Assembly: GCF_004010195.1 (NCBI RefSeq) | Contig: NC_057755.1 | Location: 6,307,474 to 6,371,473 of the forward strand | Source of the DNA: Chiloscyllium plagiosum | Lineage: Eukaryota | Direction: 5' to 3' | Length of the DNA: 64,000 bases | Part shown: positions 2,276 to 48,779 of the stretch, piece after piece | Layout: the number at the start of each line of letters is the position of its first letter | How positions within the stretch are numbered: position 1 is the first letter of the stretch | Program-made: the position numbers and the translations under genes | Notes under the pieces: model-generated | The model's input: only the letters and a program-made list of their open reading frames with translations | What the model was told of the DNA's origin: nothing | Database searches by the model: none

Positions 2276-3857
2276 CCATTCCCGTTCTGACTGACCTCAG
2301 TCACGGTTTGGCTGTGCTTAGTCCCTCTCTGACTCCCCTCTGACACACTATGACTGACTATATCTGGTAGCTATATCAGAGTTCACTGTCATGGCCATTC
2401 TCTTCTGCGGTCCAGCTGCCTCTTCGAGTTTTATCCTGTCAACAACCGCTCTTTTTTTAAAAAAAGAAAATTGTATCTGTCTCCTTTCAGCACCTGCACT
2501 GCATCCTTAATTCGCAACCAATATAAGTCAGGCAGTCTTGTGTTGTAGTTTTTCATAATTCAGTCTTCAGTTTTGGTGAATCTGCATTGCTTTAACCTCT
2601 TATTCCAGGATGCAAGCCCCAGAAACACTGCAGATTTTAACAATGTATACATGTTTCAATTAGCACGATACTTTCCTGATATTAGAAAACGATTGGGTTC
2701 AGACAGTGTTTTGATGTAACTACTTAAATGCATTTCTGACAGCAGAGAAGGTCAGCTTGAAAAAGCAATACGTTCCAATTTTCCCTGAAATAACACACGT
2801 TCACGGCAGCATATGATTTCTTCACGTTGGAGTTGTGAAATGCAGAACCTGAATCAAAACAGGCCAGCGAAGACTCTGAATGCTGAGATTCATGACCTGC
2901 TGATGTAGAATGGAGGTCTCACGACTTTGGAATCATCCTTTTTCCCAGTGAATTGCCCAGACCACTTTCAAATGTAACACCATTTTGCTTTCTGTGTTTC
3001 TGCTCGCTTTCCCTTCTTTTTATTTGAACCTCCACACATCATCGATGGTAGTTATTTCATATCATTAAGGTTTAATCTTCCTCCATTTCCAAACGCCTTT
3101 TAATCACTGATAATACAACTGGAAACTCAGATTGCAATGCAGAAACTCTAAGATCAGTTTCCCTGGGGTTTGATCATGGGTGTTAGTTGGGTGAATAGAA
3201 ATCATCAGAAGTTGAGGATACTCAGTACTTCAAAGTAATTTCTGTTTCTCTTTGTTTCAGATCTCCAGCATCTGCAGTGCTGTTTCTTTTTGCCAGAAGT
3301 GTTATAGACGGATACAATTACAGCATTTACAAGACATTTGGTTAGGTATAAGAATCAGAAGTGTTTAGAGTGATATGGGTCAAGCTCAGACAATTGAGAC
3401 TGTTAGCCACTAAGAATCCTCATTAATAGCTATTCATTGCATTAGCTGCATCATTATCCACTCCTTTGTCTGTTCAAATGTTCTTCTCTCTCTCTTCGGG
3501 CTCTATCTACAACTATCATTTCCTCCTTTTCCCATTCCACACCTTATCTTCTGCATAAAATCCATTCTTTCCTCGCTATAATCTGTTTCCAGACAGGTTC
3601 CCTGGATCAAAACATTAACATTAATTTCTTTCCACAGATGCTGCCAGAGTTGCTCAGCTTTTCCAAATATTTGTTTTTGTTTCAGCTTAGAAAACCTGGA
3701 CATCGAGTTGGACTGAAGTGTCCGTTTCCAAGCTGTATAACACTATGCCTGCTCTACAATAAAATGGCATGACTGCCCTATCAATTGACACGAAGATATA
3801 TTCAATTCTCAAACACACATTAGGAAAGCCTAAGTGTTATTCATTGTCTGTCCTATG

Positions 3858-4720
3858 TTATGAGATGTTCGTTACACTGCAGGACTCGATGTCTTTCTTG
3901 TTTGCAGTGCAAAAATTGTCAGTGTCTAATGAAGCGCAATGTTCAGAGATTCCTTCCTTGGCCCTTTTCACTCTGAAAGAGCTATTTGAGGTGTCCACTG
4001 ATACTCGGATTCCCTGGCACCCTTTCGCTATCAGTTGGATTATGACCCAGCTATTTTCCTCGTTCACTCCAAGATTGAGCTCATCTATGACTTCAAACAC
4101 CTCAAAGGGCGGGATGAGGACTTCATATTCAGAGCGAGTCACTGCAAATCGACTGATTGGAACACCCAGCTTGGTGTCTATCTCAAGCAACGTGTTTCTG
4201 TGTGAGTCCCTGGCCATGAATCCCATTGCGACTGACCGATCCAAAGACGTGGAGGTGAATTGCCCCAGCCGGATGGAATCCCCCTTCGATGCTTCCAGCT
4301 CTATGTGAACACCTCGGAATGTTTTGTGTGGCTTCCTCTTTAACTTGTCCAATGCGACGGACAGGAGGTAATGGAAACATTTGAAATGGAACTTCTGCTG
4401 ATAGATGGTATCATTTGTGCCATACTGCCTGGTTGCTGCATTAAACTCCTTGTACAATGCTGACTCTTGGGTATAAGCGTAAATTGCCATGATGTGTTCC
4501 TTTCGCAGTCCGAGTGGAACTTTAGAGTGCTGCTCCACGCGCATATCTGCCTGATCCCAAATTTCGAGGAGGTCTGTTCTGTGAGCCCATTCCTGTCTGA
4601 TGTAGTCAGACGCTGCTTGATCTGCTTCAGGGTTTTGTGTGAATATATAAGCCGCAGAGTCGTGGGCCATGTTCAGTTGGACGACATTGTCAACAGGATC
4701 AACAGCTAGAATGTTTCGAA
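3858..4720 (-). CDS. ARTC-family (ecto/secreted) NAD+-arginine mono-ADP-ribosyltransferase, paralogue A, catalytic exon
   Basis: The 270-aa ORF 3858..4670 has TFRG (Arg 4314-4316), GQFTSTS (STS 4245-4253) and SEYEVLIPPFE (ExE 4122-4130), plus the ART-typical AIYAYT and FHFKxFHYLL segments. The frame stays open upstream (RNILAVDPVDNVVQLNMAHDS) to a pyrimidine-rich acceptor ttcactggcttcccag ending at 4721. Confidence 0.93.
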
Positions 4721-4794
4721 CTGGGAAGCCAGTGAAATGTTTTGATTAATTTATGTATCGCCATAACTTTTCACAAAATTGCACTATGCCAATC

Positions 4795-5095
4795 TTTATG
4801 AAATCATAATGGGAACAGATGAAGTTTTTAGACAAGATCTTTTCCCCAGCGTAGGGGAGTCCAAAGCGAGAGGGCATAGGTTTAAGGAGAGAGGGGCAAG
4901 ATTTTAAATGGTGTAAAGGGGAAAGCTTTTCATACAGAGAATTGCGTGTATGTGCAATGAACTGTCAAAGAAAGTGGTAGAGGCGGGTATCTTTACGATA
5001 TCTAACAGACATTTAGACAGGTAAATGCATAAGAGAGATTTAGAGGGATGTGGCCAAAAGGGTTTGTTTTGTGTTGCCTACCTCTATGTCTCTAT
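4795..5095 (+). mobile_element. CR1 LINE 3' end fragment
   Basis: Contains the agagggcataggtttaag segment (RGHRFK-type ORF2 C-terminus) and a tail like the other copies. Confidence 0.7.
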
Positions 5096-5414
5096 AATTT
5101 AATTCTGCCATGAAAATATTCTAAAGCTGCGTTTTTTCCCAACGATGTGAAAATGATATGCAAAGATTATACTAGATAAGAGTAGTTCTCCTTTCTGTTA
5201 AAGTGAGCATCTTCTTAATTGGACATGGTGTTGTTAGTTTAACACACAAAAGAAAATGACACTGTTGCTCGTGCCCAATTGGAAATATCCTTCTTAACCT
5301 TTTTGATATGATTAAAAAAAAATCAGGAGATACAAGCCAAGTTTATTTCTCATCAGACAAGCTGCCTCTAACAGGCATTGGTCTGGAAAATGTTCCCAAG
5401 AATTAGGAAAGCTT

Positions 5415-6780
5415 TCCCTGGTAATTTTGGGCTAGTGAGCCTTACTTCTGCTGTGGGTAAGATGTTGAAAAAGATTAGAAGAGATAGGATTTGTAATGAT
5501 ATGAAAAGGAATAATTTGATTAGGGAAAGGAAACACGGTTTTGTGAAGAGTAGGTCGTGCCTCACTAAACTTATTTAGTTCTTCGAAAAGGTGACAAAAC
5601 AGGTGGATAAAGGTAAAGCGGTTGATGTGGTGTGTATGGATTTCATTAAGGCATTTGATAAGTTTCCACACAGTTGGCTATTGTACAAAACAGAGAAATT
5701 CGGGATTGAAGGAGATTTATTGGTTTGGCTCAGAAAGTGGCTAGCTGAAAGAAGACACTGGGTGGTGGTTGATGGGAAATGTTCATCCTGGAGCTCAGTT
5801 ACCAGTGGTGTGCCGCAAGGATCTATTTTGGGGACACTGCTGTTTGTCATTTTTATAAATGATCTGGAGGTGGGCATAGAAGGATGGGTTAGTAAATTTG
5901 CGGATGACACTAAGGTAAGCAGAGTTTTGATTGGTGACGAAGCATGTTGCAGATTGACAAAGGAACATAGATAAGATGCAGAGCTGGACTGAGAAGTGGC
6001 AAATGGAATTATATGCAGAAAAGTGTGAGATAGTTCACTTTGGAAGAAGTAACAGGAATGCAGAGTACTGGGATAATGGTAAAATTCTTGGCATTGTAGA
6101 TGAACAGAGAGATGTCGATGCCCAGGTGCATAAATCCCTGAAAGTTGCCACCCAGGTTCATAGGGTTGTGAAGAAGTCATATGGTATGTTCGCGTTTACT
6201 GATGAGGGATTGAGCTTCGGAGCCACGAGGTCATGATTCAGCTATACAACACACTGGGAAGGCCGCACCAGGAGTATTGTGTGCAGTTCTGGCCACCACA
6301 TTATAGGAAAGATGGGGAAGCTTTGGAAAGGGTTCAGAGAAGATTACTACGTCGTTGTCTGGTTTGAAAGGAAGGTCGTAGAAGGACAAGACGAGGGAAT
6401 TGCGGCTATTTTCATTGGACAGAAGAAGATTGAGACATGACTTAATCGAGACTTTGAAGATGATCAGAGGGTTAGATATGGTGGACAGTGAGAGCCTTTT
6501 CCCTCGGATGGTGAAGGCTAACAAGAGGGCATATAGCTTTAAATTGATGCATGATAGATTTAGGACAGTTATCAGCGGTAGTTTCTTTAGTCAGAGAGTA
6601 TTAGAGGCGTGGAATAGCCTGACTGCAATAGTAGAATCGCCGACATTAAATGTGTGTGGGACAGACATATTAAAAATAATGGAACACTGTAGGTTAGATG
6701 GGCATCAGATTAATTTTACAGGTCGACGCAACATCAGGGGCTGAAGGGGCAGTACTGTGCTGTAACATCTATTTTCTATG
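5415..6780 (+). mobile_element. 5'-truncated CR1 LINE (RT domain, frameshifted)
   Basis: ORF fragments [39 protein letters not shown], followed by a ttctatg tail. Confidence 0.93.
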
Positions 6781-7129
6781 TAATTCTCCCAACATAGTTA
6801 TATCCTCCCATCATAGCAAAACCAATTTTCCAGATGAAGTCAGACACCTGATGTTTGTAACTTAAGTCTAGTTTCCCTACTTATGTATTAAAATTCCATA
6901 GCAATACCATAACATTCGATTAGTTTTTTCAATTGTTTGACTTACCTGCATACTAACATTTTGTGCTTGTGAAACAGGATGCATGGATCCCTCTGCAGTT
7001 CAGAGTCTCTAGTCTTTGAGAGAACATGTTCCATTGTTCATCTTCCTGTTAAAATTTCCATCTTCACCTTTTCCAACATTATACTCAATTTCCCAACCAC
7101 AACTGTACAATTATACTCTACACGATTAC

Positions 7130-7825
7130 ATGTTGACCACAAAACGCGTAGGCCTAAGTTATATGGAGACGTTGAATAGGATAAAACTTTGTTCATTGCA
7201 AAGTAGGAGAATGAGGAGTGATCTTCTTGGAGTGTATGAAATCAGAAGGGGCATAGATATGATGTATGCATATAACCTTTTTTTCAGTGGTGACGGATTG
7301 AACGACTAGACGTCATTAGTTTAAGATGAGAAGAGAAATGTTTAACAACAACTGAGGGGCAACGTCTTCTCTTAGAGTGTGATGCCTATATGGAAGGAGT
7401 TACCAGAGAATGTGGTTGAGGCAAGTACAACGCCAGAAGAAATTGAGGGCCGCAGATGCCCAAGCTCAGAGTCGAGATTGTAGTGCTGGAAAAGCACAGC
7501 AGATGAGGCAGCACCCGAAGGTTAGGAGCATCGACGTTTCGGGCAAAAGCCCTGATGAAGGCTTATGCTGGAAAGGTCGATTCTCCTGCTCCTCAGATTC
7601 TGGCTAACGTGCCGTGCATTTCCAGCCTCACACCCTCGACGCAAGTACAACACCAAATTTCAAAAAATAATTGGATAGGTACATGAATCGGTATGGTTTA
7701 GAAGAATGTGGATTAAATGTGGACAATTGGAACTTGCTGACTGGACACATACTCAGCATGGACCAATTTGGACCGAAAGGCAGATTTCCATGTCGTGTTA
7801 ATGTATGACTCTATTCTATGACTCT
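7130..7825 (+). mobile_element. CR1 3' end interrupted by a Penelope-like insertion
   Basis: SLQSRRMRSDLLGVYEI fragment and a (gactcta)-type tail near 7805-7825. Confidence 0.75.
7436..7640. mobile_element. Penelope-like terminal (pLTR) fragment, head-to-head inverted, with a 15-bp target-site duplication (TSD)
   Basis: Flanked by gcaagtacaacgcca (7421-7435) and gcaagtacaacacca (7641-7655). The two arms are inverted, with CTGATGA at 7552. Confidence 0.8.
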
Positions 7826-7949
7826 CACCCCATGAGAAAGTAAACTTTGTTCGGATGAATTGTTTTGAAATAGAATCAATGAATGACTGAATGGCTTAGC
7901 TTCATGCTCTACAGCATATGTTTTGAGAATTTAAATAGCCTCTTTCTTA

Positions 7950-10900
7950 CGCCGCCCTGTCATACTAATCTGAAGTCAATCCCACCTACATTATTCCATG
8001 TACGTCCATATGCCTGTCCAACGACGACTTAAATGAACTTAAACTTGGCGCATCTACTACCGTTGCAGGCAAAGCATTCCATACCCTTACTACTCTCTGA
8101 GTAATGAAACTACCTCTGACATCTGACTTATACCTACCTCCCCTCACTTTAAAGTTGTGTCCCCTCGTGCTTGCCGTCCCCATACTTGGAAAAAGGCTCT
8201 CCCTGACCACCCTATCTAACTCTCTGATTATCGTGTATGTCTCTTTTAAGTCATCTCTCAACCTTCTTCTTTCTAACGAGAACAACCTCAAGGCCCTCAG
8301 CCTTTCCTCGTAGGACATTCCTTCCATACCAGGCAACATCCTAGTAAATCCCCTCTGCACCCTCTCCAAAGCTTCAACATTCTTCTGATAATGCGGAACT
8401 TTACACAATACTTCAAGTGTGGGCGTACCAGACCTTTGTGCAGCTGCAGCATAACCTCCTGGTTCCGGAACTCAATCCCTCTATTAATAAAGGCCAAAAC
8501 ATTGTAAGCCTTCTTAAGAACCCTGTCAATCTGGGTGGCAACTTTCAAGGATCTGTGTACATGGACACCGAGATCTCTCTGCTCATCTGCACTCCCAAGA
8601 ATCTTACCGTTAGCCCAGTACTTTGCATTCCGATTACTCCATCCATAGTGCATCACCTCACACTTGTCCACATTAAACTCCATTTGCCACCTCTCAGCCC
8701 AGCTCTGCATCCTATCTAAATCTCTCTGCAACCTACTATCTCCTTCATCACTATCCACAACTCCACCGACCTTAGTGTCGTTCGCAAATTTACTAACCCA
8801 CCCTTCTAAGCCCTCATCCAGGTCATTTAAAAAAATGACAAACAGCAGTTGACCCAACACTGACCCTTGTGGTACGTCGCTAGTAACCGGACACCAAGAT
8901 GAACATGTTCCATCAACTACAACACTCTGTTTTCTTTCAGCAAGCAAATTACTGATCCAAATTGCTATGTCCCCCACAATCCCATTCCTCCACATTTTGT
9001 ATAATAGCCTACTGTGGGGAAACTTAACGAACGCCTTGCTGGAATCCATATACACCACATCAACCTGTTTACTCTCATCTACCCGTTTGGTCACTTTGTC
9101 AAAAACTCAATAACTTTCGTTAGGCATGACCGACCCTTCACAAAACCGTGCTGACTGTCCCTGATCCGATTATTCTTTTCGAGATGGTTATAAATCCTAT
9201 CTCTTATAACCTTTTCCAACACATTACTACCTGTTTGGTCACTTTGTCAAAAAACTCAATAACTTTCGTTAGGCATGACCTACCCTTCACAAAACCGTGC
9301 TGACTGTCCCTGATCCGATTATTCTTTTCGAGATGGTTATAAATCCTATCTCTTATAACCTTTTCCAACACATTACCGACAACTGAAGTGAGACTCACTG
9401 GTCTGTAATTACCAGGGTTGTCTCTACTACCTTTTTGAACAAGAGCACCACATTTGCTATCCTCCAGCCCTCAGGCACTATTCCTGTAGACAATGATGAT
9501 TTGAAGATCAATGCCAAAGGCTCGGCAGTCTCTTCCCTTGCTTCCTAGAGGTTCCTATAATAGATCTCATCCGGCCCTGGGGACTTGTCTATTTTCACAC
9601 TCTGCAGTATTTCTAATACCTCTTCCTTGTGAACCTCAATCTCTTCTAGTCAAGGTGCAAGTATCTCTGTATCCTCCTCGCCAACATTTTCATTTTCTAT
9701 ATTGAACACTATCGAAAAATATTTATTTAGTGCTTCCCCATCTCCTCTGATTCCACATACAACTTCCCAGTGTTATCCTTGGTTGGACCTAATGTAACTT
9801 TCGTCATTCTTTTATTCTTGACATACCTATGGAAAGCCTTAGGGTTAACCCTGATCCTATCCGCCAACAACTACTCATGTCTCCTCCTGGCTCTTCTGAG
9901 CTCTCTTTTTAGGTCTTTCCTGACTTCCTTGTAACCCTCAAACGCCCTAACTGAGTTTTCACATTTTGTCCTAACATAAGCCTTCTTCTTCTTCTTGTAC
10001 AGGGATTCCATTTCCTCAGTAAACCAGGGCTCACGCGTTCCATATCTTCCTCCCTGCCTGACAGGTACATACTTCTCTAGGACACACAGGAGCTTTTCCT
10101 TGAATAAGCTCCATGAGTTCTCTTTTTAGGTCTTTCCTGACTTCCTTGTAACCCTCAAACGCCCTAACTGAGTTTTCACATTTTGTCCTAACATAAGCCT
10201 TCTTCTTCTTCTTGTCCAGGGATTCCATTTCCTCAGTAAACCAGGGCTCACGCGTTCCATATCTTCCTCCCTGCCTGACAGGTACATACTTCTCTAGGAC
10301 ACACAGGAGCTTTTCCTTGAATAAGCTCCACATTTTTAATGTGCTCATCCCCTGCAGTTTCCTTCCCCATTCTACGCTTCCTAAATCTTTCCTAATTGCA
10401 TCGTAATTTCCCTTCCCCCAGTTCTAATTCTTGCTCGGTGGAGTACACCTATCCCTTTCCATCACTAAAGTAATTCACTCCCTGAATTTCTGCCTCAAGT
10501 CCCCATCTCTCTTCCGACCTATGTCGTTGGTGCCAATGTGGACCACGACTTGGGGCTGCTCTCCCTCCACCCGAAGGATCCCAAAAACACGATCAGAGAC
10601 ATCACGGACCCTGGCACCCAGGAGGCAACACACCAACTGTGAGTCTGTCTCGTCCCCACAGAACCTCCTATCTGTCCCGCTAACTATCGAGTCCCCAATG
10701 ACCACTTCTCTGCTCCTCTTCCCCCTTCACTTCTGAGCAGTAGGTGCCCCACTGCTTTCCCCTAGTAAGTCATTCCCCAACAGTATCCAAAACGGTATAC
10801 TTATTGTTGAGGGGAATGGCCACAGGAGATCCCTGCACTGCCTGCCAGTTCCCTAAATGTCCCCTAAATGTCACCCATCTGTCTTTTTCTTTTATTTGGG

Positions 10901-11310
10901 GAGTGACTACCTCTCTGTAAGTCCTGTCAATAACCCCCTCTACCTTCCGAATGATCCGAAGTTCATCCAACTCCAGCTCCAGTTCCATAACGCGGTTTTC
11001 GAGGAGCTAGTGTTGGGTGCACTTCCCACAGATGTAGTCAGGAGGGACACTAGTGGTGACCCTTACTTCCCACATAATGGAGGAGGAATATTCCACTGCC
11101 GTAAACTCCATTCCCACTATTCTAACTCCCGAAGTGACTACTAAAAAAAAAGGATTAGGAAAGAAACTAGTTACCTTACCTTGTCAATCTGGCTCCCACA
11201 ACTTACCTTTTAGGATAGAGGAGGATGTTGGGTGGGAGACATTACCCGAGTAGTGTCTCGGGTAACGCAACCACGCAAATATAAACTGTTGTACTTACCC
11301 TTCCTAGAAG
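7950..11310 (-). mobile_element. CR1 LINE with 5'UTR, ORF1 and ORF2, internally deleted and duplicated, inside the intron of ART-A
   Basis: ORF1 fragments VIGDSIVSGTDRRFCG, HIGTNDIG and ELELELDELR. RT fragments DVPQGSVLG and SKFANDTK. ORF1 is fused to mid-ORF2 near 10470, so most of the endonuclease is missing. Confidence 0.93.
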
Positions 11311-11590
11311 TCCTTCCTAGAGATTCTTCAGGCACACAGTAACGAATCTATTGAACTCATTGCTACAGAAGACTGTGGAGGCCAATGTTTTCAACGTGTT
11401 TAAGTGTGATGAGTTATACATGAAACGTCGACTTCTCCACCTTCTGATGCTGCCTGGACTGCTGTGTTATTCTAGCCTCCTGGTTATCTATTTTGAACGT
11501 ATTTATGACAGGGAAAGATAGGTTTTTGATTAGTGACGGGATCAAGGGTTATGGGTGACGGCAACAGAATGGGGTTGAGAAACATATTAG

Positions 11591-11717
11591 GAGAAAGTGA
11601 GGACTGAAGCTGCTGGAGATCAAAATCGAAAAGTGTGGTGCTGGAAAAATACAGCAGGTCAACCAGCATCCTTGAGCAGGAGAATGGACGTCTCCGTCAT
11701 AAACTCTTCATCAGAAT
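11591..11717. mobile_element. Penelope-like terminal fragment with an 8-bp TSD, inserted in a CR1 3' relic (about 11330-11780)
   Basis: catattag at 11583-11590 and 11718-11725. The insert begins gagaaagtgaggactg, like the copies at 7436, 23457 and 34655. Confidence 0.78.
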
Positions 11718-11978
11718 CATATTAGCCTTGGTGGAGCATACTTGAATGGTGGATTGGCTTAATTATTTTCCGATATCTTATGAGCAATGCACATAATGAT
11801 TTCATACACTCCTCGGGCAATAATTGCTGGAAACTGAATGAGCTCCTCTATTCCAAACTTTACACAATACACAAATCACAAAAAACATGAGTGCTTTGCT
11901 TAAAATATCATCACCAAATGAATGACTTTTGGAAACTCACTTCAATGAGTTTTGTTCTGACACAGTGAAAACACTTAC

Positions 11979-12024
11979 TTTTAAAATGAGAAAGGAACAG
12001 CACTATGTAAACCAACAGTTGCAT
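11979..12024 (-). CDS. Signal-peptide exon of ART paralogue A (MQLLVYIVLFLSHFK, plus 1 nt)
   Basis: ATG at 12024 with a purine at -3, then 46 nt and a GTAAGT donor (11978-11973). Phase 1 joins in frame to the acceptor at 4720, giving MQLLVYIVLFLSHFK-I-RNILAVDPVD (302 aa in total). It is homologous to the exon at 48439-48484. Confidence 0.82.
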
Positions 12025-24334: not shown

Positions 24335-24564
24335 CACCTCAAATACTAATTGGGGAAGCAGATACTCTCAATGGGAGCCCAGGATCCGATGGCACCTTGT
24401 GCTCTTATAGCCACTGTATATATGCAGTGAGTCCAGTTGAGTTTCTATTCATTAATAGACAAAAAAGAAATTTCTTGAAATAGTCAGCAGGTGTGGCAGC
24501 CTCGGAGGAGAGAAATCAGAGGTAACGTTTCAGGTTGATTTACACTTCCTCAGAACCTTTTTCG

Positions 24565-25995
24565 GGTCGCTCTTCATGTTTTGCCTCGTTCACTCTGGCT
24601 CTCTCACCTGCTCACTCTTTCTCTTTTCTTATGTCTCTCTATCTTTCTATCTCTCACTTTCTCTCTCTCTCTCTCTTGCTCTTTCAGTTGCTATTTCGCT
24701 CTCTCGTGTTTTCTTCTCTTCACTTGCTCTCTCGGCTGGATTTGCTTTCTCTCGCTTTCCCAATCATTCTATCTCTCTTACTCTCCTGCACTGTCTCCCA
24801 TTTTTTCTATTCACTCACCCTATAACTTACTGCCACCGTATCTCTCTCTCTCTTTCTGTCTCACTGTTTTGCGTTCTCGCTTGCTCTATTGTTCGTTCAC
24901 TCTTTTTTTGCACTCTTGCTTTCTCTTACCATCTTGGTCTTCTTCTGTTCTGCTCCCTCATGTTCAATCTCTCATTCTCTTTCATTCTCCACTTGCTTGC
25001 TCTCTCTCACTCTCTATGCAGTTCCTCTCTCTTCCCCTCACTACTTACTTGTTCACTCACTCACTGTCTCATGCCCTCTCTCTCTTGCTCTCTTTCTGTC
25101 TTGTGCTTGCACTTTCTCTCTCTCTGTTTCATGCTTCACCTCTTTGCTCGCTTTCATTCACTGCCTCACACTCCGTCACACTTTCATGCTCTCTCTTTCT
25201 CTATTGTTCCCTCTCCACACGCTTTCACACTGGCTATCGAACTCTGTCTAGCTCTCTGCCTGCTTGCTTGCTCCCATACTCTCCCTCTGCATTGCCTGCT
25301 CTCTCACCTGCTCACTCACAACGAAACATTTATTTGTTATTTCACACACATTCTCTCAGATGCACTCCCACTCATTCTCTCTCGTTTACTCTCTCACTCT
25401 GATTCAGATTTGCTCTGTTGCGCTGCCTCTCAATCATGCTTTCTATCTCTCACTGTCTCTCGAGTTCTCTCCTACTCATTCTCTCTCTCAAGCACTCTCT
25501 TGGAATCTCTTCAGTGTCTCTCAATATCTCAGCATTCTCTCTCAGTAACTCTCTCTCAACTGCGCTTTCTTTCTCTTGCTCTCCCCATTTCTTGCCATCT
25601 TGCACGGTCTCTGTTTCAGTCTGTTTCTTACTCTCACACACACTCTCTCTCTCTCTCTCACGCTGTGTCCCTTCATTTCTCTATCTCGGCCTTGTCATTC
25701 TTCCTCTCTCTTGCTCACTTACTCTGGCCCATTTATCATTTCACTTGTTCTCTCCCTGCATTGACCTCACTTGTTCTGTTTCTCGCTGTCTCTCTCTCGT
25801 TAGTTTGTTCTAGCTCTCCAGCTCTTTGACTGTCTGTTTGATCTCTATCTCTCATCCTCTCTCTCCTACACTTGTCTCTCAGTAACTCTCTCTCCACTCT
25901 CTCTCTCGCACTTTATCTTTCTCGTGCTCTCCCTCTTGCTCTCTCTCAACCTCACTCCTTCTCCACTTTCTCTCTCTTGCGCGCTCTGGCATTCT
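24565..25995. repeat. 1.4-kb degenerate (CT)n polypyrimidine tract
   Basis: Directly visible CT/CTCA/CTTG low-complexity sequence. Confidence 0.95.
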
Positions 25996-28099: not shown

Positions 28100-29695
28100 G
28101 AGTGCACTATTATTTTTGTACCATGTACTGTCTATTATCAAGAACTTCTAATCAAGCACTTAACATAAAACATGAAGAATGCACCATCACGTCTATACTA
28201 CATACTATCCATGATCAAGCATTGATAATCAAGTTATGTCATATAAAACATGAGTCGTGTAGTACCAGTTATTTTTCATGCACTATTATCAAACACGAAT
28301 AATGCACCTTTAATTATATACCATGCTGTATCTAGATTAGATTATATTGCTAACAGTGTGGAAACAGGCCCTTCGACCCAACAAGTCGACATCGGCCCTC
28401 AGAAGAGCAATCCACCCAGACCCATTTCCCTACATTTACCCTTTCACCTGACACTATAGGGCAATTTAGCATGGCCAATTCACCTAACATGCACATTTTT
28501 GCACTTTGGCAGGAATCCGGAACAAACCCACGGTGACACAGGGAGAATGTGCAAACTCCACACAGACAGTTGCCTGAGGCGGGAATTGAACCTGGGTCTC
28601 TGGCGCTGTGAGACAGCTAACCACTGTGCCACCGTGTCACCCACAGTTATCAAGCATCGATAATCAAGTATGCTATATAACACATGTACCATTTTCTGTT
28701 AATTATGTACCACATACTACCAATTAGCCAGAATTGATAACCAGGCATAAAGGATAAAGCATAACGTATGCAGTAGCATATATAACCATGCACATTTTAT
28801 GAGCAAGCATTGGTAATCAAGTACACTATATAAAAAATGATGCATGCAAGGCCAGTTGTATATCATGCACGATTATCAAGCACTGATAATCAATTATGTT
28901 ATGCAGAATATGAATGGTGCTCTATCAGTTGTATGCCACGTTATGTGGATTAGCGAGTATTCATTATCAAGCATATAATGCAAAGTTGAAATTGCGCACT
29001 TATAGGTCTATGCCAAGCATTATCTGTTATCAAACATTGATAATCAAGCATGACAATTTAAATACCATGCTCTGTCTGTTGTCAAGTATGTTGCATAAAA
29101 CATAAATCATGTTCTTTTGGTTATTTACCAGGCATATCCATTAATGAGCATTGATAATTAAGCATGTAATATAAAACATGAAGAAGACACTACCATTTAT
29201 CTATTATGCACAATCTATTATCAGCCATTGATAATAAAGTATTTTATAGAAAACATAAAGCACGCATTCTTAGTTATATATCATACACTATCGATTAGCG
29301 AACATTGATTATCAAGCATATAAAAAAAACTCAAGCATGTATCATCAATTACATGACCGGCACATTTATCAAACATCGATAATCAATAATATAATGTAAA
29401 GCACGAAGAATGCACTATCAGTTCAATAACGAGCACTTTCTATCATCACGCATTGTTACTCAAATATCTTATATGAAACATGGAGCATGTTATATCAGTC
29501 ATATAATATGCACTATGATTAAGCATTGATAATCAAGCATGCAATATAAAAAATGATGCACTTTTATCAGTTACATGCCATGCACTAATGATTGCGAGAA
29601 TTGTTAACCAATAATGTACTTTAAAAGTTGAAATATATACCATCCATATGCGCCATGCACTATCTATTATCAAACATTTATAAACAGTTAGCTAT
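28100..29695. repeat. Degenerate AT-rich minisatellite, period about 73-78 bp, interrupted by a SINE; a short further stretch at about 30930-31065
   Basis: Recurrent ttatcaagcattgataatcaagcat..atataaaacatga units, with taatcaag-like anchors near 28148, 28226, 28661, 28814, 28887, 29041, 29380 and 29530. Confidence 0.85.
28332..28645 (-). mobile_element. HE1/V-SINE-like SINE (well preserved)
   Basis: Reverse complement begins cacggtggcacagtggttagc, then acccaggttcaattcccgcctcaggcaactgtctgtgtggagtttgcacattctcc; tail (atcta)n. Confidence 0.88.
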
Positions 29696-29702
29696 CAGCC
29701 TC

Positions 29703-30508
29703 TTATTGCTGAGCCAGGAAGGTTTTCTGCCTCGTAAGAGCTGACCAAGTTTGGAGCAGTTGCGTTTGGAGCAGTTGCGTGTCAACTGTCATCCTGATAC
29801 CCTTGCTTCCCCTCGAAGCAAGTATAATCTTGATCCACTTCTTACTGCCTTGCTTTTCCCACTCCGGCATGTTTTCAACTTCAAAGACCTCGGTGGGTGG
29901 AATGACGACTTCTTCTTCATGTTCCATATCCGAAAATTCCCAGATGAGCACTCCTAGTTTGGTCCTTATTTCGAATAGCGTGTTGGCATCCGACCTACTG
30001 TTCATGAAGCTAATGGCTATTGAACGCATTAACGAGGTTGAAGAAAACTGGCCCAGGCGGACGTCCTCTCCCTTTGTGGCGTTGAATAGGATCCGAACTC
30101 CCCTGAAGGTGATGTGCTGTTTTTGCTGAAACTTAGCTAGTGCTACAGAGAAGAGATAATGGAAACTTTTGAAATGGAAGTTCGTTTGATAGATGGTGTC
30201 GCTTGCTCCATACTTTCTGGTGGCTGCATTAAATTCCTCATATAAACTGGATTCTTGAGTGTAAGCGTTAATAGCCATCAAATGCTCCCTGCGCAATCCT
30301 GCTGGCATAATGCAATTTTGCCCCAAGCTTCTGTTTGCACGTTCTCATACTTCGAGAAAATCGCTTCGGTCTTGCCATTCCTTTCTGATATAATCAATTG
30401 CTGCCTGGTCGGTGGTGTCTTCCTGGGTGAATATATAAGCGGCCGAATTCTTTGCCATGTCCAGTTTGATCCATTTTCCCGTAGCTCTCAGAGTTGAAGT
30501 TCGCTGGT
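29703..30508 (-). pseudogene. ARTC paralogue B catalytic exon with one premature TGA (probable recent pseudogene or null allele)
   Basis: The acceptor ctttctttcacag ends at 30509, exactly 50 nt before LDMAKNSAAYIFTQ, the same spacing as in A. An in-frame TGA at 30347-30345 aligns with Trp of A. TFRG (Arg 30102-30104), FSSTS (STS 30033-30041) and HEEEV (ExE 29910-29918) are intact. Roughly 55-60% identical to A by eye. Confidence 0.85.
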
Positions 30509-31064
30509 CTGTGAAAGAAAGTGGATTTTACTCCGTCATGCGGCCACACCGTAGATACAAATGTGTCGGATCCCCATTGCCTCAATGTTAAGAACCCTAC
30601 AAATTAGATGGTGGAAAACAACTACATTATTCTGCCATACAATGTACTCTATTGCAATCAGATGGCTGCTTCTACAGCAAGACTGAACTCGTATCCTGTC
30701 ATTCCCACTTGTGTCCCTCGGGAGAGACAGCCCATGTAGAATGTCCAAGAGTGGTCAATTTACTGGGAATCAGTATCGGAATCAGACCTTTACTATTGAC
30801 GCATTAAATCACGTAGGTGATTCGAGAACTGCATAAAACATTAGTTAGGCCACAATGTGCAGTTCCGGAATCCACATTATAGGAGGGGTGTGATAGCACT
30901 GAAGAGGAGATTCAACAAGGTGTCTCTTGTGCTATGATTGACACATCATCAGTAATTAAACATGTAATATAAAGCATGTTCTATCAGTTTTCTATCATTC
31001 ACTAACTGAGATAAAACATTGACAATTAAGCAGTAATACTTAACATGATACATGCATAATCCAC

Positions 31065-32485
31065 GCCTTAAGTTCACCCATCTTATTTCTGATACTCCTT
31101 GCGTTGAAGTATATGCACTTGAACCCATCTCTGTGTCTGCAAGTATTCCCTGTCAGTGCTACCTTCTTCACAGCCTCCCTATATTCTTGGACATCCTGAA
31201 AAACAGCTAACCTACTTCTGGACTACAAGTCCGGATCCCATCCCCCTGCCAAATTAGTTTAAACCCCACGAAGAGTGCTAGCAAACCTACCTCCCAGGAT
31301 ATTGGTGCCCTTCTGGTTCAGGTGCAACCTGTCCTGCTTGTACAGGTCCCACCTTCCCCAGAATGCAGTCCAATTGTCCAAATACCTGAAGCCCTCCCTC
31401 CTACACCATCCTTGCAGCCACGTGTTCAACTGCACTCCCTCCCTGTTCCTTGCCTCACTGCCATGTGGCACCGGCAGCAACCCAGAGATGACGACTCTGT
31501 CCGTCCTAGCTTTTAGCTTCCAGCCTCACTCCCTGAGCTCCTAATGTCCTCCCCACCCCTCTTCCTACCTTTGTCGTTCGTGCCAATGTGCACCACGACT
31601 TCTGGCTGCACACCCTCCCCCTTAAGGATTCTGATATGGCCCGAGAAGTCTCGGACCCTGGCACCCGGGAGGCAACAAACCAAACGAGAGTCTCGCCCAA
31701 ATGTGCACCACGACTTCTGGCTGCACACCCTCCCCCTTAAGGATTCTGAAGATATGGTCCGAGACGAATCGGACCCTGGCACCCGGGAGGCAACAAACCA
31801 AACGAGAGTCTCGCCCGTGTCCACAGGACCACCTGTCTGTCCCTCTAACTATAGAGTCTCCTATAACTAGCGCACTCCTCCTCTCCTCCTTTCCCTTCTG
31901 AGACTCAGAGCTGGACCTCGTGCCAGAGACCCGGTCACTGCAGCTTACCCCTGCTAGGCCGTCCCCCCCAACAGTATCCAAAGCGGTATACGTATTGTTG
32001 AGGGGAACGACCACAGGGGATCCCTGCACTGCCTGCTTCCTCCCCTTCCCACCTCTAACTGTTACCCATCTACCTCTGTTCTCTGGCGTAACTATGTCCC
32101 TGTAGCTTCTACCTATCACCCTCTCGGCCTCTCGAATAATTCTCAGTTCATCCAACTCCAGCTCCTGTTCCCTAACGCGGTCTGTGAGGAGCTGGAGCTG
32201 ACTGCACTTCCTGCAGATGAAGTCAGCAGGAGCATCGGTGGTCACCCCTACCTCAAACATCCTGAACGAGGAACATTCCACTGCCTGCGCTGCCATAACT
32301 CTACACTTAGTCTCCAAAACAAGAACACTATGTAGCTTACCTTTTTTTATGTTAGAGGAGGAGGGAGGGTGGGAGACACTACACATGTAGTGTCTCGGGT
32401 TCCTTCTCCACTCAAATAACAATCATTTACCTTCCCGACCGGCTTTGCGCTCCGACTTCACTTCCGCCCAGTTACCGCCGCGGAG
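31065..32485 (-). mobile_element. CR1 LINE 5' portion: 5'UTR, largely open ORF1 (Cys/zinc-finger-like, coiled coil, SGNH) and first codons of ORF2
   Basis: ORF 31622..32422 has VECSS..FICRKC, ELELDELR and VIGDSIVRGTD. WGRWDLYKQDRLHLN follows, then FKCIYFNARSIRNK near 31125-31080. Confidence 0.92.
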
Positions 32486-38427: not shown

Positions 38428-40874
38428 AGAACATTACAGCGCAGTACAGGCCCTTCGGCACTCGATGTTGAGCCGGCCAGTCATAACAATCATAAGTCCA
38501 TCTAACCTACACTATTCCATGTACGTCCATATGTCTATCCAATGACGACTTAAATGCACTTAAAGTTGGCGAATCTACTACCGTTGCAGGCAAATCATTC
38601 CATACCCTTACTACTCTGTGAGTAAAGAAACTACCTCTGACGTCTGTCTTATATCTATCAACCCTCAATTTAAAGCTATGCCCCCTCGTGCTCGTCGTCA
38701 CCATACTTGGTAAAAGGCTCTCCCTGTCCACCCTATCCAACCTTCTGAATATCTTATATGTCTCTATTAAGTTACCTCTCAACCTTCTTCTCTTCCTCAA
38801 GTCCCTCAGACGTTCCTCGCAAGACCTCCCCTCCATACCAGGCAACATCTGAGTAAATCTCCTCTGCAACCTTTCAAAAGCTTCCACATCTTTCTTACAA
38901 TATGGTGACCAGAACTGTACACAATACTGCAAGTGCGGCCACACCAGAGCTTTGTACAGCTGTAGCATAACCTCATGGTTCCGGAACTCGATCCCTCTAT
39001 TAATAAAAGTTAAAACACTGTGTGCCTTCTTAACAACCCTGTCAACCTGGGTGGCAACTTTCAAGGATCTGTGTACCTGGACACCGAGATCTCGCTGCTC
39101 ATCTACACTACCAATAATCTTACCATTAGCACAGCCCTTTGCATTCCGGTTACTCTGATAAAGTAAATCATCTCACACTAGACCACATCAAACTCCATTT
39201 GCCACCTCTTAGCCCAGCTCTTCAGCTTACCTATGTCTCTCTGTAACCTACAACATCCTTCGACACTATCCACAACTCTACCGACCTTAGTGTTGTCCGC
39301 AAATTTACTAACCCACCCTTCTACGCCCTCATCCAGTTCGTTTATAAAAATGACGAACAACAATGGACCCAACACCGACCCATGCGGTACAGCACTAGTA
39401 ACTCGACTCCAGGATGAACATTTCCCATCAACCACCACCCTTTGTCATCTTTCAGCAAGCCAATTACTGATCCAAACTGCTATATCAACCACAATCCCAT
39501 TCCTCCGCATTTTGTAAAATCGCCTACTGTCGAACCTTGTCGAACGCCTTGCTAAAATCCATATACACCACATCAACCGGTTAACTCGCACCTGTCTGTT
39601 TGGTCACCTTCTCAAAGAAATCAATAAGGTCTGTGAGGCACGACCTACCCTTCACAAAACCGTGCTGACTATCCCTAATCAAATTATTCTTTTCTAGATG
39701 ATTATAAATCCTATCTCTTATAACCTTTTCCAACACTTTACCAACAACTGAAGTAAGGCTCACTGGTCTACAATTACTAGGGTTGTCTCTACTCCCCTTC
39801 TTGAACAGGGAAACCACATTTGCTATCCTCCAGTCTTCTGACACTATTCCTGTAGACAATGACGATTTAAAGATCAAAGTCGGCAATCTCCTCCCTGGCT
39901 TCCCAGAAGATCCTAGGATAAATCCCATCTGGCCCAAGGGACTTAGCTATTTTCACAGTCTGCCAGATGACTAATACATCTTCCTTGTGAACCTCAATCC
40001 CACCTAGTCTAGTAGCCTGTATCTCTGTATTCTCCTCGACAACATTGCCATTTGCTAGAGTGAATACTGTCGAAAAATATTCATAGTGCTTCCCCTATGT
40101 CCTCTGACTCCACACACAACTTCCCTTACTATCCTTGATTGGACCTAATCTTACTCTCGTCATTCTTTTATTCCTTAAATACCTACAGAAAGCCTTTGAG
40201 TTTACCCTGATCCTATCCACCAACAACTTCTCATGTCTCCTCCTGGCTCTTCTGAGCTCTCCCTTTCGGTCTTTCCTGGCTACCTTGTAATCTTCAAGCG
40301 CCCTAACTGAGCCTTCACATCTCTTCCTAACAGAAGTCTTCTTCTTCCTCTTGACCAGAGATTCCACTTCCTTCATAAACCACGGTCCCACGCTCTACAG
40401 CTTCCTCCCTGCCTGACAGGTACATACTTATCTAGGACACTCAGGAGCTTTTCCTTGAATAAGCTCCACATTTCTTATGTGTCCATCCCCTGCAGTTTCC
40501 TTCCCAATCCTATGCTTCATAAATCTTTCCTAATCGCATCGTAATTGCCTTTCCCCCAGCTGTAACTCTTGCCCAGTGGTATACACCTATCCGTTTCTAT
40601 CAATAAAGTAAGCATAACAGAATTGTGATCGCTATCACTAAAGTACTCACCTACTTCCAAGTCTAACGCCTGGCCAGGTTCATTACCAGTACCAAATCTA
40701 ATGTGGCTTCACCCCTTGTTTGCCTGTCCACATACTATGTCAGGAAGCCCTCCTGCACACACTGGACAAAAACTGACCCATGTATAGTACTTGTACTATA
40801 GTGTTCCCAGTCAATATTTGGAAAGTTGAAGACCCCATGACAACTACCCTGCCTCTCTCACTCCTATCGTGAAT
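38428..40874 (-). mobile_element. Younger 5'-truncated CR1 nested in the older CR1
   Basis: Has its own agaacat tail at 38428. Long open RT fragments (SKFADNTK, HGFVKGRSCLT). Confidence 0.9.
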
Positions 40875-43377
40875 CATCTTTCAGCGGTATCCACAACTCC
40901 ACCGACCTTTGTGTCATCCGAAAAGTTACTAACCCATTCTTCTATGCCCTCATCCATGTAATTTATAAAAATGACAGGCGGCAATGGCCTTGAAACAGAT
41001 CCTTGCGGTACACCAGGAGTAACTGAACTCCGGGATGAACGTTTCCCATCAACCACCACCCTCTGTCTTCTTTCAGCAGCCAATTCCAAGCCACAAAATC
41101 ACTCTCAAACCCATGCCTCTGCATCAGTGAGATAGCCGACAGTGGGGAACCTTATCAAACGTCTTACTGATATCCATATACACATTAACCGTTTTAGTGG
41201 CATCCACCTGATTGTTCACAATCTCAAAGAACTCAATAAAATTTGTGAGGCACGACTTACCCTTCACAAAATCGTGTTGACTGTCCCTAATCAACTTATT
41301 TCTTTCTGGATGGTTATAAATCATATCTTTTACATTCCTTTACAACACTTTACCCATAACCAACCTAAGGCTCACTGAACTATAATTACCAGGGTTGTCT
41401 CTACTCCCCTTCTTGAGCAAGAGGGCAACATTTGCTCTCCTCGACTCTTTTACTGCTATTCCTGGAGATAATGACATAAACTTCCCTGGCTTCTGTGGCT
41501 TCCTAGAGAATCCTCGGATGAGTCTCATCGGCCCAGGGAACCTATCTATTTTCAGACTTTCCATAATTGCTAACAACTCCTCCAAGTGAGGCACAATCTC
41601 GTCGAGTACAGTAATTGTATCTCAGTATTTTCCTCGACAGATTGTCTTTTTCCAGTGTGAATACTGACAAAAATTCATTTAGCGCTTCTCCTCTCTCCTC
41701 AGACTCCACGCACAACATCCCATTACTATCCTTGCTTGGCCCTAATCTTACTCTTGGCATTCTTTTATTCCTGATATTCCGAGAGAAATCTTTAAGGTTT
41801 TCCCTGACCCTGTCTGCCAATGACTTCTCATGTCCCCTCTTGGCTCTTCTTGGCTCTCTGTTTAGGTGTTTCCTGGCAATCTTCCAACTCTCAAACACTT
41901 AACTGAGCCTTCACGTCTCATCCTAACATGAGCATTCTTCTTTCTCTTGATAAGAGACTTAACTTATTTAATAAACTACTCGCTTGACCACTTCCTCCCT
42001 GCCTGACAGCAACATACCTATCAAGGAAATACTGCACCTAGTCCTTAAATAAACTCCACAGATCAATTGGGTCCATTCCCTGCACTTTCGTTCCTCATCC
42101 AAGGCATCCTAAATCTTGTCTACTCGCATCACAATTGCCTTTCCCCAGCTATAACTCTTCCACGGCGGTATATGCCTATCCCTTTCCATCGCAAAAGTAA
42201 ACATATCTGAATTGTAGTCATTATCACCAAAGTGTTTACTTACATTCAAATCCAACAACTGGCCAGTTTCATTACCGAATACCAAATCCGATGTAGCCTG
42301 GCCCCTTCTTGGGCTGTCTACATAATATATCAGGAATATGTCTTGCACACCTTAGACAAAAACTAACTCATCTAAATTATTCGAACTATCGTATTTCCAC
42401 GCAAGATTTGGAAAGTAAAGACCCCATAACAACTACCCTGTTACTCTCGCTCATATGCAGAACAATCTTTGATATCGTTTCCTCTACATTTCTGGTACTA
42501 TTTGGAAGACTACAGAAAATTCCAAACAGGGTGGCCTCTCCTTTCCCGTTTGTAACCTCAGCCCATACTACCTGAGTAGACGAGTCCTCAAACATCCTTT
42601 CTGCCATTGTCAAACAGTCCTTGACTATAAATGCCACACCTTTGCTCTGTTCTTATTGAAGCATCTAAATCCCAGAACCTGCAACAACCATTCCCTTCCC
42701 TGCTCTATCCAAGTCTCTGAAATAGCCACAACATTGAAGGCCCAGGTACCAACCCATGCTGCATGTTCATCTACAGTTATTCCGGATGCTCCTGGTTTTG
42801 GAGTAGACACACTTCAAAACAGCTTCCTGTTTGCCACTGAACTTTTGCGACCATGAAACCTTATTTCTGACCTCACTACTCGCACCCTGTTGAACAATGA
42901 AACTGCCAGTTAGGCCCCAATCCGCCTGCTGAATGAATTTAATACCTCCCGAAGAGCATTCGGCAATTTTGCCCACAGATTATTGGTGCCCCTCTGTTTC
43001 AGGTGTAGACCATCCTGTTTGTAGAGGTCGCACCTACCCCAGAATGACACCAAGTTATCCAGGTATCAGAAACCCTCCCAATTGCACCATTCGTGTGGCG
43101 ACGTGTTCAACTCTTCTCTCTTCTTATGCTTTGCCTCGCTAGCACGTGGCACGGCCATCAAACCAGAGACAACAACTCGGCTTGTCTCAGCACTGAGCTT
43201 CCATCATACGTTCCCGAATTTCAGCTTTACATCACCAATTCGTTTCCTAACTATGTCGTTAGTGCCTACGTGGAGCATGTCTTGGATCTGCTCCCCCTCC
43301 CCCTAAAGGATCCTTAAACCATGATACAAGGCATCACGAACCCTGGCACGTGGGAGGCAACGCACCAACCATGAGTA

Positions 43378-46300: not shown

Positions 46301-46530
46301 TTACACAGAGCATCTTACATGCATGGAATGCGCTGCCAGAGGAAGTGGTGAAGGCTAGTACAATTGCAACATTTAAAATGCATCTCCACTGGGTATATGA
46401 AGAGGAAGGGATCGGAGGGATATGGGCCGGGAGCTGGCAGGTGGGACGAGATTGGATTGAGATATCTGGTCGGCATGGACAAGACTGAAGGGTCTGTTTC
46501 TGTGCTGTACATCGCTAAGACTCTATGTAT
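43378..46530 (+). mobile_element. CR1 (end of ORF1 plus degenerate full ORF2) nested in opposite orientation
   Basis: CIYYNARGL start near 43730, DFTKAFDEVP, GVPQVSVL, FADDIK, and a gactctatg tail near 46520. Confidence 0.9.
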
Positions 46531-46899
46531 CTGTGAATGTCTCGTTCCCACAGAACCTCCGATCTGTCCCCGTAAGTATGGAGTCCCCAATGACTAATGT
46601 TCTGCTCTTCTCCTCCTTCCCTTCTAAGCAACTGGGACAGACTCTGTGCCAGAAACTTGTACCTCGTGGCTTACCTCGGTACCCAACCCCCGCCCCATTC
46701 CCGCAATAGTGGACAAAATGATATATTGTTATTGAAGGAATAGTCCACAGGGGATCCCTTTCCGGCCCCTGACTGTAACCCATCTGCCTTTTTCTGGTGC
46801 TTGAGGTGTGACTAGCTCCTTGTAACTTCTCTCATAACCCCTTGTGCTTCCCGAATAACCCGAATATCATCTTTTTCAGCAGCACTCTCCACGGTCCTA

Positions 46900-48438: not shown

Positions 48439-48484
48439 TCTCCAAATACAGAGAGAGAAGAAGGATTTTCCCCAAAAGCTGCAT
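48439..48484 (-). CDS. Signal-peptide exon of ART paralogue B (MQLLGKILLLSLYLE, plus 1 nt; in-frame upstream ATGs at 48490 and 48493)
   Basis: 46 nt from ATG to a GTAAGT donor (48438-48433), the same length and phase as the exon of A, and the same MQLL start. It splices in frame to 30508 across an intron of about 17.9 kb. Confidence 0.8.
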
Positions 48485-48779
48485 TCTCATCATCTTTGGT
48501 CTGTCTCTTGGAGAAATTATTTCCCAGACGTCTTGTTTCTCCTATATTGCCCACTCCTCCATGTTTCACCACAGAAATGAACTGTCATCACAGCAAATGA
48601 TTTTCGCCAATCTTGAAATGATATGAAAAGGAAATGTCAAACACCCAGCGTGTGAAATAGCACAATGGAACACGATCACAAACTAACACGGAAAGGTGGT
48701 GCTATAATTCCTGTGAAAATTATGTGAAAATGCCACGCAACTAGCTGCAATCTCCCTATTTTTTGCCCATTTTTCTGCG

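What the first reader, a model, noticed from the sequence alone, without database searches (positions are those of the whole stretch)
4011..4670. Both ARTs appear to lack the conserved ecto-ART disulfide cysteines and any GPI signal
Established: vertebrate ecto-ARTs have four conserved Cys, in the contexts DDQYxGC, CxxVxRG, TCxG and the C-terminal YNC. Seen: the equivalent positions here read MAHDSAAYIFTQ / MAKNSAAYIFTQ, PHKTFRG / QHITFRG and TKLG in both paralogues. Neither reading frame ends in a hydrophobic GPI-signal stretch. Inference: a divergent ARTC subfamily with a core free of the usual disulfides, closer in this respect to bacterial C3/C2-type toxin domains, yet carrying a signal peptide.
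Basis: partly seen in the sequence, partly recalled or inferred. Interest (0 to 1): 0.72.

Follow-up and report, generated by a model that had tools for sequence, protein, structure and literature searches.

The report
Shark ecto-ARTs lacking canonical disulfides
This shark gene encodes a likely secreted ADP-ribosylating enzyme that, like every cartilaginous-fish relative we found, lacks the four cysteines that bony-vertebrate versions conserve, and its predicted structure would instead be closed by an extra beta-hairpin; the neighbouring copy is a broken pseudogene.

Summary
Gene A (exons 12024-11979 and 4720-3858, minus strand; identical to a Chiloscyllium plagiosum protein) has a signal-peptide exon, an intact R-S-EXE site, none of the four canonical cysteines and no hydrophobic C-terminus. 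RNA-like contigs run unbroken through its stop. Copy B is a transcribed pseudogene (in-frame TGA plus frameshift, seen in two other runs). None of 59 shark, ray and chimaera ARTs has a canonical cysteine pair; none of 262 other rows lacks both outer cysteines. All 7 ART loci found in this genome are of the Cys-less type. The clade forms one side of a tree branch (SH-aLRT 94) and includes secreted, GPI-like and transmembrane-like members. It is not toxin-like: the fold matches rat ART2.2 (Z 23.2) far better than C2/C3 (Z about 11). Gene A keeps four tail cysteines, so it is probably not disulfide-free. Missing GPI alone is ordinary (ARTC5 is secreted). Whether the disulfides were lost in cartilaginous fish or gained in bony vertebrates is unresolved. 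Ten literature searches found no description. Verdict: new variant of a known family.

The parts
11979..12024 (-). Gene A exon 1 coding part: signal-peptide h-region, phase-1 GT donor
   Evidence: Matches residues 1-15 of P0001 exactly; donor GTAAGT
4721..11978 (-). Gene A intron (7.26 kb, rich in LINE relics)
   Evidence: GT...AG ends; exon 1 + exon 2 translate to P0001; RNA-like contigs end at 4720 with 149 (X3) and 30 (X5) unmatched letters beyond it
3858..4720 (-). Gene A exon 2: whole catalytic ART domain, predicted C-terminal hairpin, Cys tail and stop codon
   Evidence: PF01129 E 1.1e-44; AF2 mean pLDDT 82, ART2.2 Z 23.2
4638..4670 (-). MAHDSAAYIFT motif in place of canonical DDQYxGC; T43 sits in the first-cysteine column; residues 40-42 form a predicted beta strand
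4122..4316 (-). Catalytic R151, S172 (STS) and E213-x-E215 (R-S-EXE motif)
   Evidence: motif meaning from PMC3102197 passages
3879..4019 (-). Non-canonical cysteines C250, C277, C286, C296 and the predicted extended strand and hairpin (residues about 238-268)
   Evidence: DSSP strands; C-x3-C-x-C tail in 8 of 14 secreted-type rows, degenerate in gene A
3117..3857 (-). Sequence 3' of the stop, contiguous with the coding exon in RNA-like contigs (likely 3' UTR; AATAAA at about 3024)
   Evidence: X5 contig 3117-4091 and X3 contig 3251-4720 unbroken
48439..48493 (-). Copy B exon 1 coding part (signal peptide), GT donor
   Evidence: an X5 contig ends at 48439 with 59 unmatched letters
29703..30508 (-). 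Copy B exon 2, pseudogene: in-frame TGA at 30347-30345; frameshift with a 15-nt tandem repeat at 29780-29751
   Evidence: X5 contig 30126-30374 has 0 differences, X7 contig 30160-30595 has 1 difference elsewhere, X5 contig 29622-30108 has no gaps

Best explanation
Gene A is a two-exon shark ARTC gene that likely encodes a secreted, arginine-specific mono-ADP-ribosyltransferase of a cartilaginous-fish lineage lacking all four canonical cysteines, with a predicted C-terminal beta-hairpin that would take over the job of the end-to-end disulfide. Shown: exon structure, R-S-EXE site, absence of the four Cys, no hydrophobic tail, distribution across sharks, rays and chimaera, and pseudogene status of copy B. 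Predicted: the ART2-like fold, a new strand at the AYIF motif, a last strand about ten residues longer, and a returning hairpin. Inferred: the signal peptide sends the protein out of the cell, where it uses released NAD+ to modify arginines of surface or soluble proteins, probably in immune or tissue-damage signalling as ARTC1, ARTC2 and avian secreted ARTs do. The AYIF strand likely packs on the G-x-x-V strand where the outer disulfide sits in ART2.2. C250 and the tail cysteines likely form new disulfides outside the core.
For: Exons join to P0001 exactly. RNA-like contigs break at the acceptor and run through the stop. 53 of 59 chondrichthyan rows have no Cys in any canonical column and the other 6 have one unpaired hit; 203 of 262 other rows have all four and none lacks both outer ones. 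The Pfam ART model finds 7 loci in this genome, the same 7 as the gene A query. The 33 chondrichthyan rows of a 67-row tree built without the Cys columns form one side of a branch, SH-aLRT 94. Two AF2 models show strands E40-42 and E238-268 at high confidence and match ART2.2 best (Z 23.2 and 26.5). F42, G252, V255 and V266 are invariant or nearly so in 15 clade members. Catalytic R and E are kept in 52 of 53 clade rows.
Against: No activity, secretion or disulfide data exist. No signal-peptide or GPI predictor was available; both calls rest on hydropathy. Model coordinates were not returned, so strand pairing and tail disulfides are inferred from secondary structure and conservation; gene A's tail (282-302) has pLDDT under 50. 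Gene A has lost two of the three Cys of the C-x3-C-x-C tail motif and has a long branch (0.40), so it may be decaying or diverging; two of the three ART copies in this cluster are broken. Branch support of 94 is below the tool's starred threshold and comes from the quick search; FastTree gave 0.43 for the same group. The genome search scores only the best candidates, so a canonical shark ART could be missed.
Confidence: 0.78

Rival explanations
1. The Cys-less form is the ancestral jawed-vertebrate state, and the four-cysteine scaffold was gained on the bony-vertebrate branch. This concerns direction of change and is compatible with the best explanation.
For: The unrooted tree has a single split between chondrichthyan and bony rows, with ray-finned and tetrapod rows in separate groups, so one change on either side suffices. 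The chimaera rows already lack the Cys. The one distant unnamed hit, P0312, has neither outer Cys.
Against: Rooting on P0312 leaves the base open and makes bony rows non-monophyletic; its branch is long (2.14). No jawless-vertebrate or invertebrate ART was named in three searches. Some shark rows keep part of the canonical motif (SVDYYF, SADYHF), which fits either direction.
Confidence: 0.4
2. The four cysteines are ancestral; one chondrichthyan gene lost them, then expanded while canonical ARTs were lost in that lineage.
For: Chondrichthyan rows form one group. The inner pair is lost repeatedly in bony vertebrates (17 of 262 rows with only the outer pair), so loss is a real route. Loss is simpler than gaining two matched pairs (inference).
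Against: It needs loss of the outer pair, which no non-chondrichthyan row shows (0 of 262). Shark ART loci found are not on the contigs carrying NUP98 or NUP54, the recalled neighbours of human ART1/5 and ART3, so synteny gives no link.
Confidence: 0.5
3. Gene A is a decaying, non-functional member of a dying cluster.
For: Copy B and a third copy about 33 kb beyond the window carry stops. Gene A lacks two conserved tail Cys and keeps an unpaired C130.
Against: The 302-residue frame is open with the catalytic triad intact. An X5 contig over 4305-4720 has 0 differences, and a second species code holds an unbroken contig at about 95% identity. Orthologous-grade proteins exist in several shark orders.
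Confidence: 0.08
4. A toxin-like or horizontally acquired ART closer to bacterial C2/C3 enzymes than to vertebrate ecto-ARTs.
For: Like bacterial ART domains it lacks the core disulfide cysteines; bacterial ARTs match the fold at Z 9-16.
Against: ART2.2 is far closer (Z 23.2, rmsd 2.6, 213 aligned, including the N-terminal segment 29-80 that C2/C3 matches do not cover). All named sequence hits are vertebrate ARTs. The gene has a signal exon and a phase-1 intron.
Confidence: 0.02
5. Gene A is membrane-anchored through a downstream GPI exon missed in the genomic frame.
For: The public model is labelled isoform X1 and its cluster has 2 members; contigs drop rare variants.
Against: Contigs from two studies cross 4091-3251 unbroken. 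In this clade the GPI-like or transmembrane-like tail is encoded in the catalytic exon's own frame (L003, L004). Fourteen related rows end without a hydrophobic tail.
Confidence: 0.06

Closest known systems
Rat ARTC2.2 (PDB 1gxy) and mammalian ecto-ARTs ARTC1-5 (Pfam PF01129)
   Same: Same fold over nearly the whole domain (Z 23.2, 28% identity); R-S-E triad; signal peptide; catalytic domain in one large exon (the mammalian exon layout is recalled).
   Different: None of the four conserved Cys; AYIF motif in place of DDQY; a predicted longer last strand plus hairpin in place of the xYNC end; no GPI tail on gene A.
Secreted ARTCs: mammalian ARTC5 and avian NRT1/NRT2/NARE-type ARTs
   Same: No GPI anchor and an EXE motif (ARTC5 secreted per PMC9027952 passages; chicken NRT1 = P0036). 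Some bony rows also carry an extra Cys before the last canonical one (37 of 250), near the position of C250.
   Different: They keep the canonical Cys; gene A does not group with the avian or other tetrapod rows in the tree. The database name 'ART5-like' is an automatic label, and named ART5 proteins were not in the tree.
Bacterial R-S-E toxins and effectors (HopU1, ExoS, C2-I, C3)
   Same: Shared ARTC catalytic fold (Z 11-16); no reliance on the vertebrate core disulfides (recalled).
   Different: 14-24% identity; C2/C3 matches start at about residue 81 and miss the N-terminal segment; no delivery domain; intron-containing host gene.

Membership tests
ARTC family (cholera-toxin-like ADP-ribosyltransferases) | R-[ST]-E catalytic triad | tested here: met
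   R151, S172, E215; definition in PMC9027952 passages
ARTC family (cholera-toxin-like ADP-ribosyltransferases) | ARTC fold and PF01129 above cut-off | tested here: met
   152.8 bits against cut-off 22.3; ART2.2 Z 23.2
ARTC family (cholera-toxin-like ADP-ribosyltransferases) | Mono-ADP-ribosyltransferase activity | not testable with these tools
   Needs an enzyme assay
Arginine-specific ARTs | R-S-EXE motif | tested here: met
   E213-Y-E215; 35 of 53 clade rows have E, 16 have Q and 2 have H at -2; rule from PMC3102197 passages
Vertebrate ecto-ARTs | N-terminal signal peptide | tested here: met
   Exon 1 hydrophobic stretch, 9-residue hydropathy 3.29; judged by hydropathy only, no predictor run
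Canonical bony-vertebrate ecto-ARTs (ART1-5 type) | Four conserved cysteines forming two disulfides | tested here: not met
   0 of 4 in both copies; no Cys before residue 130 in gene A. The pairing of these Cys is recalled, not read in a paper here
GPI-anchored ecto-ARTs (ARTC1-4) | C-terminal hydrophobic GPI signal | tested here: not met
   Hydropathy; unbroken contigs across the stop; no GPI predictor available
ART5 orthologues | Grouping and synteny with tetrapod ART5 | tested here: inconclusive
   Tree places the clade apart from all bony rows, but no named ART5 was included; NUP98 lies on C6, not C46; no neighbouring gene identified
C2/C3-type bacterial ART toxins | Closer sequence or fold similarity to C2/C3 than to vertebrate ARTs | tested here: not met
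   Z 11.0-11.4 against 23.2; no toxin hit at E < 0.001 by sequence

The most novel reading that the evidence does not exclude
The entire ecto-ART repertoire of cartilaginous fish is built on an undescribed disulfide-free, hairpin-closed scaffold that preserves the ancestral jawed-vertebrate form. It diversified independently into secreted, GPI-anchored and single-pass transmembrane enzymes, the last a topology not listed for mammalian ARTCs. The 'universal' four-cysteine scaffold would then be a bony-vertebrate invention.
Probability: 0.33. Interest if true: 0.68.

Novelty: new variant of a known kind. Interest (0 to 1): 0.5.

Why it matters
The canonical cysteines are treated as a hallmark of vertebrate ecto-ARTs (recalled), and the outer pair is never wholly missing in 262 non-chondrichthyan rows here. 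A lineage older than the shark-chimaera split does without all four, which shows an extracellular ARTC can be built another way. It also dates a structural switch to the base of jawed vertebrates. The clade offers naturally disulfide-free ecto-ART cores for enzymology and, apparently, transmembrane ARTCs. It makes testable whether extracellular NAD signalling of the ARTC2/P2X7 kind exists in the oldest animals with adaptive immunity. It is a structural and evolutionary variant of a known enzyme family, not a new mechanism.

Tried and rejected
Downstream GPI exon: not seen in contigs; no run holding the stretch is on record as RNA, and X5 and X3 are judged RNA-like from intron gaps and breaks at splice sites. 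Raw single-cell run X10 laid 0 reads on copy B, so it is no test. The exon 1-exon 2 joint of gene A was not among the 15 joints shown of 379. Assembly error as cause of copy B's stop: rejected. Outgroup search for jawless vertebrates or invertebrates: none named; the representative search found 4403 hits at E <= 0.001 but listed only 150. Atlas searches added nothing beyond ART clusters. Synteny: NUP98 on C6 and NUP54 on C1; WBP11 search rang nowhere; 148 of 649 candidate ORFs from the window and 100 kb on each side gave only two LINE-endonuclease hits. Viral fold search gave only distant ART folds. The careful IQ-TREE run did not finish, so the quick tree is cited; no AU test was run. Glowacki 2002 was not held. 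Earlier-findings look-ups returned nothing.

Full report
What is in the window. The window is G000:C46:6307474-6371473 of a 3.56-Gb genome. It holds two ART copies on the minus strand, both hitting PF01129. Gene A's protein is identical to P0001, named by its source as ecto-ADP-ribosyltransferase 5-like isoform X1 of Chiloscyllium plagiosum. Exon 1 (12024-11979) encodes a hydrophobic signal segment and ends in a phase-1 GT donor. Exon 2 (4720-3858) encodes the rest; the joined frame gives P0001 exactly. Copy B has exon 1 at 48493-48439 and exon 2 from 30508. It has a TGA at 30347-30345, where gene A has Trp, and a frameshift with a 15-nt tandem repeat at 29780-29751. Both defects are present in run X5 and the TGA also in X7, so B is a pseudogene. 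Close relatives P0007 and P0061 in two other species are intact. A third broken copy lies about 33 kb beyond the window.

The cysteine observation. Canonical columns were anchored on chicken NRT1 (P0036). In the first alignment, 0 of 40 elasmobranch rows had a Cys at any of the four positions. Among 86 other rows the counts were 83/83, 82/86, 81/86 and 84/84 for rows covering each site. After adding 137 representatives (3 over 700 aa or already held were left out) and 59 further proteins, the final tally over 322 rows was as follows. Of 59 chondrichthyan rows, 53 had none, 2 had a single Cys before the catalytic Arg without a partner, and 4 (chimaera near-copies) scored only through a Cys in the hydrophobic tail; none had a pair. 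Of 262 other rows, 203 had all four, 17 had only the outer pair, and none lacked both outer Cys. One unnamed row, P0312, was kept apart. The rows include near-copies and partial proteins, so these are counts of sequences, not independent events. Most of the 262 are unnamed; 30 representatives were looked up. Every Cys-less one looked up was a shark, ray or Callorhinchus milii; P0125 and P0130 were assigned by similarity. Loss of the inner pair is therefore common in vertebrates; loss of the outer pair is what marks this lineage. That these Cys pair 1-4 and 2-3 is recalled from the ART2.2 structure; the passages I read did not state it.

Breadth. A profile of 15 clade members ranked 36 elasmobranch proteins first (E <= 6e-66), then other vertebrates from 8e-49. 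The Pfam ART model found 7 loci among 9 candidates scored in this genome, the same 7 as the gene A query. Five were in the tally and lack the Cys; the two broken ones (L005, L007) were not tallied but match clade proteins. A tree of 67 rows on 183 core columns, with the Cys motifs excluded, put 33 chondrichthyan and 34 other rows on two sides of one branch (SH-aLRT 94, quick search, unstarred). FastTree on 261 rows recovered the same group with weak support, 0.43. Rooting on P0312 left the base unresolved, so gain versus loss is open.

GPI and secretion. Gene A's tail is not hydrophobic. An X3 contig runs 4720-3251 with 149 unmatched letters beyond the acceptor. X5 contigs cover 4305-4720 (30 unmatched letters at 4720) and 3117-4091. 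X5 has zero depth over several intronic bins where X7 has cover, so it behaves as RNA, although its type is not on record. No break appears across the C-terminus and stop, so a major GPI exon is unlikely; a rare isoform is not excluded. Across 50 clade proteins sorted by eye from hydropathy, 14 end without a hydrophobic segment, 21 end in a GPI-like hydrophobic tail, 9 have a transmembrane-like segment followed by a short basic or Cys-rich tail, and 6 are truncated or unclear. In this genome L003 (GPI-like) and L004 (transmembrane-like) encode those tails in the catalytic exon's frame. Lack of GPI is thus one of three options in the clade, and mammalian ARTC5 is also secreted (PMC9027952, passages).

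Structure. The AF2 model of gene A has mean pLDDT 82.1 and pTM 0.79, with low confidence at 14-25 and 282-302. The model of the horn-shark relative P0005 has mean pLDDT 91.0. Both show a strand at 40-42 (YIF) and C-terminal strands running to 268. The best structural match is rat ART2.2: Z 23.2, rmsd 2.6, 213 aligned, model 29-265; Z 26.5 for P0005. HopU1 scores 16.1, C2-I 11.4 and C3bot2 11.0. F42, G252, V255 and V266 are invariant or nearly so in the clade alignment, and V fills the fourth-Cys column in 46 of 53 rows. Gene A has no Cys before residue 130, so the outer bond cannot form in any register. The secreted subgroup has a Cys at the C250 position in 11 rows and a C-x3-C-x-C tail in 8 of 14, suggesting new disulfides outside the core. 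Gene A keeps C250 and the middle tail Cys and has two further Cys in a longer tail.

Mechanism. R151, S172 and E213-x-E215 form the R-S-EXE motif that marks arginine-specific ARTs (PMC3102197, abstract text and passages). Three N-glycosylation sequons are present. The likely product is a secreted arginine mono-ADP-ribosyltransferase acting on extracellular NAD+. An immune or damage-signalling role is inferred by analogy with ARTC1 and ARTC2 (PMC8038981, passages; PMC5705771, passages); targets and tissue are unknown.

Novelty. Ten full-text searches (listings and abstract starts only) returned no paper on cartilaginous-fish ARTCs or on a Cys-less ecto-ART clade. PMC6628389 (passages) was not informative. 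The library lacks most subscription papers, including Glowacki 2002, and no supplements were read, so a prior mention is possible. The proteins are public but carry only automatic names. I file this as a member of the ARTC family, not of the canonical four-cysteine type, and as a new variant of a known kind, interest 0.5.

Noticed in passing
L004:1369-2355 (G000:C7); also P0017, P0019, P0066, P0072, P0075-P0077, P0129, P0133: Chondrichthyan ARTs ending in a transmembrane-like segment plus a short basic or Cys-rich tail, suggesting single-pass membrane ARTCs; they fall in two separate branches of the tree.
   Followed up: partly
G000:C46:6404243-6404704 (L005, L028), + strand: Third ART copy of the cluster with four stops, closest to the P0009 type; two of three copies here are broken.
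   Followed up: partly
P0312 (unnamed, 260 aa): Distant PF01129 protein with a hydrophobic GPI-like end, an EEE motif and no outer Cys; long branch, origin unknown, possible non-vertebrate ecto-ART.
   Followed up: partly
window:4706-4708: A second in-phase AG 15 nt inside exon 2 of gene A could give a shorter isoform; the public model is labelled isoform X1.
   Followed up: no
L006:487-1440 (G000:C86341): Very divergent GC-rich ART with an acidic N-terminal stretch and QEKE motif; long branch and odd composition.
   Followed up: no
L007:1435-2130 (G000:C93728): Frameshifted ART of the transmembrane-like type on a small contig.
   Followed up: no
public contigs named: Several ART paralogues of different tail types share one contig length in Pristis (6), Heterodontus (5) and Rhincodon (4), pointing to a mixed gene cluster.
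   Followed up: no
window:5400-12000, 31600-32400, 38500-47000: Dense LINE-like reverse-transcriptase relics fill both introns; a TC-rich low-complexity tract lies at about 24400-25900.
   Followed up: no
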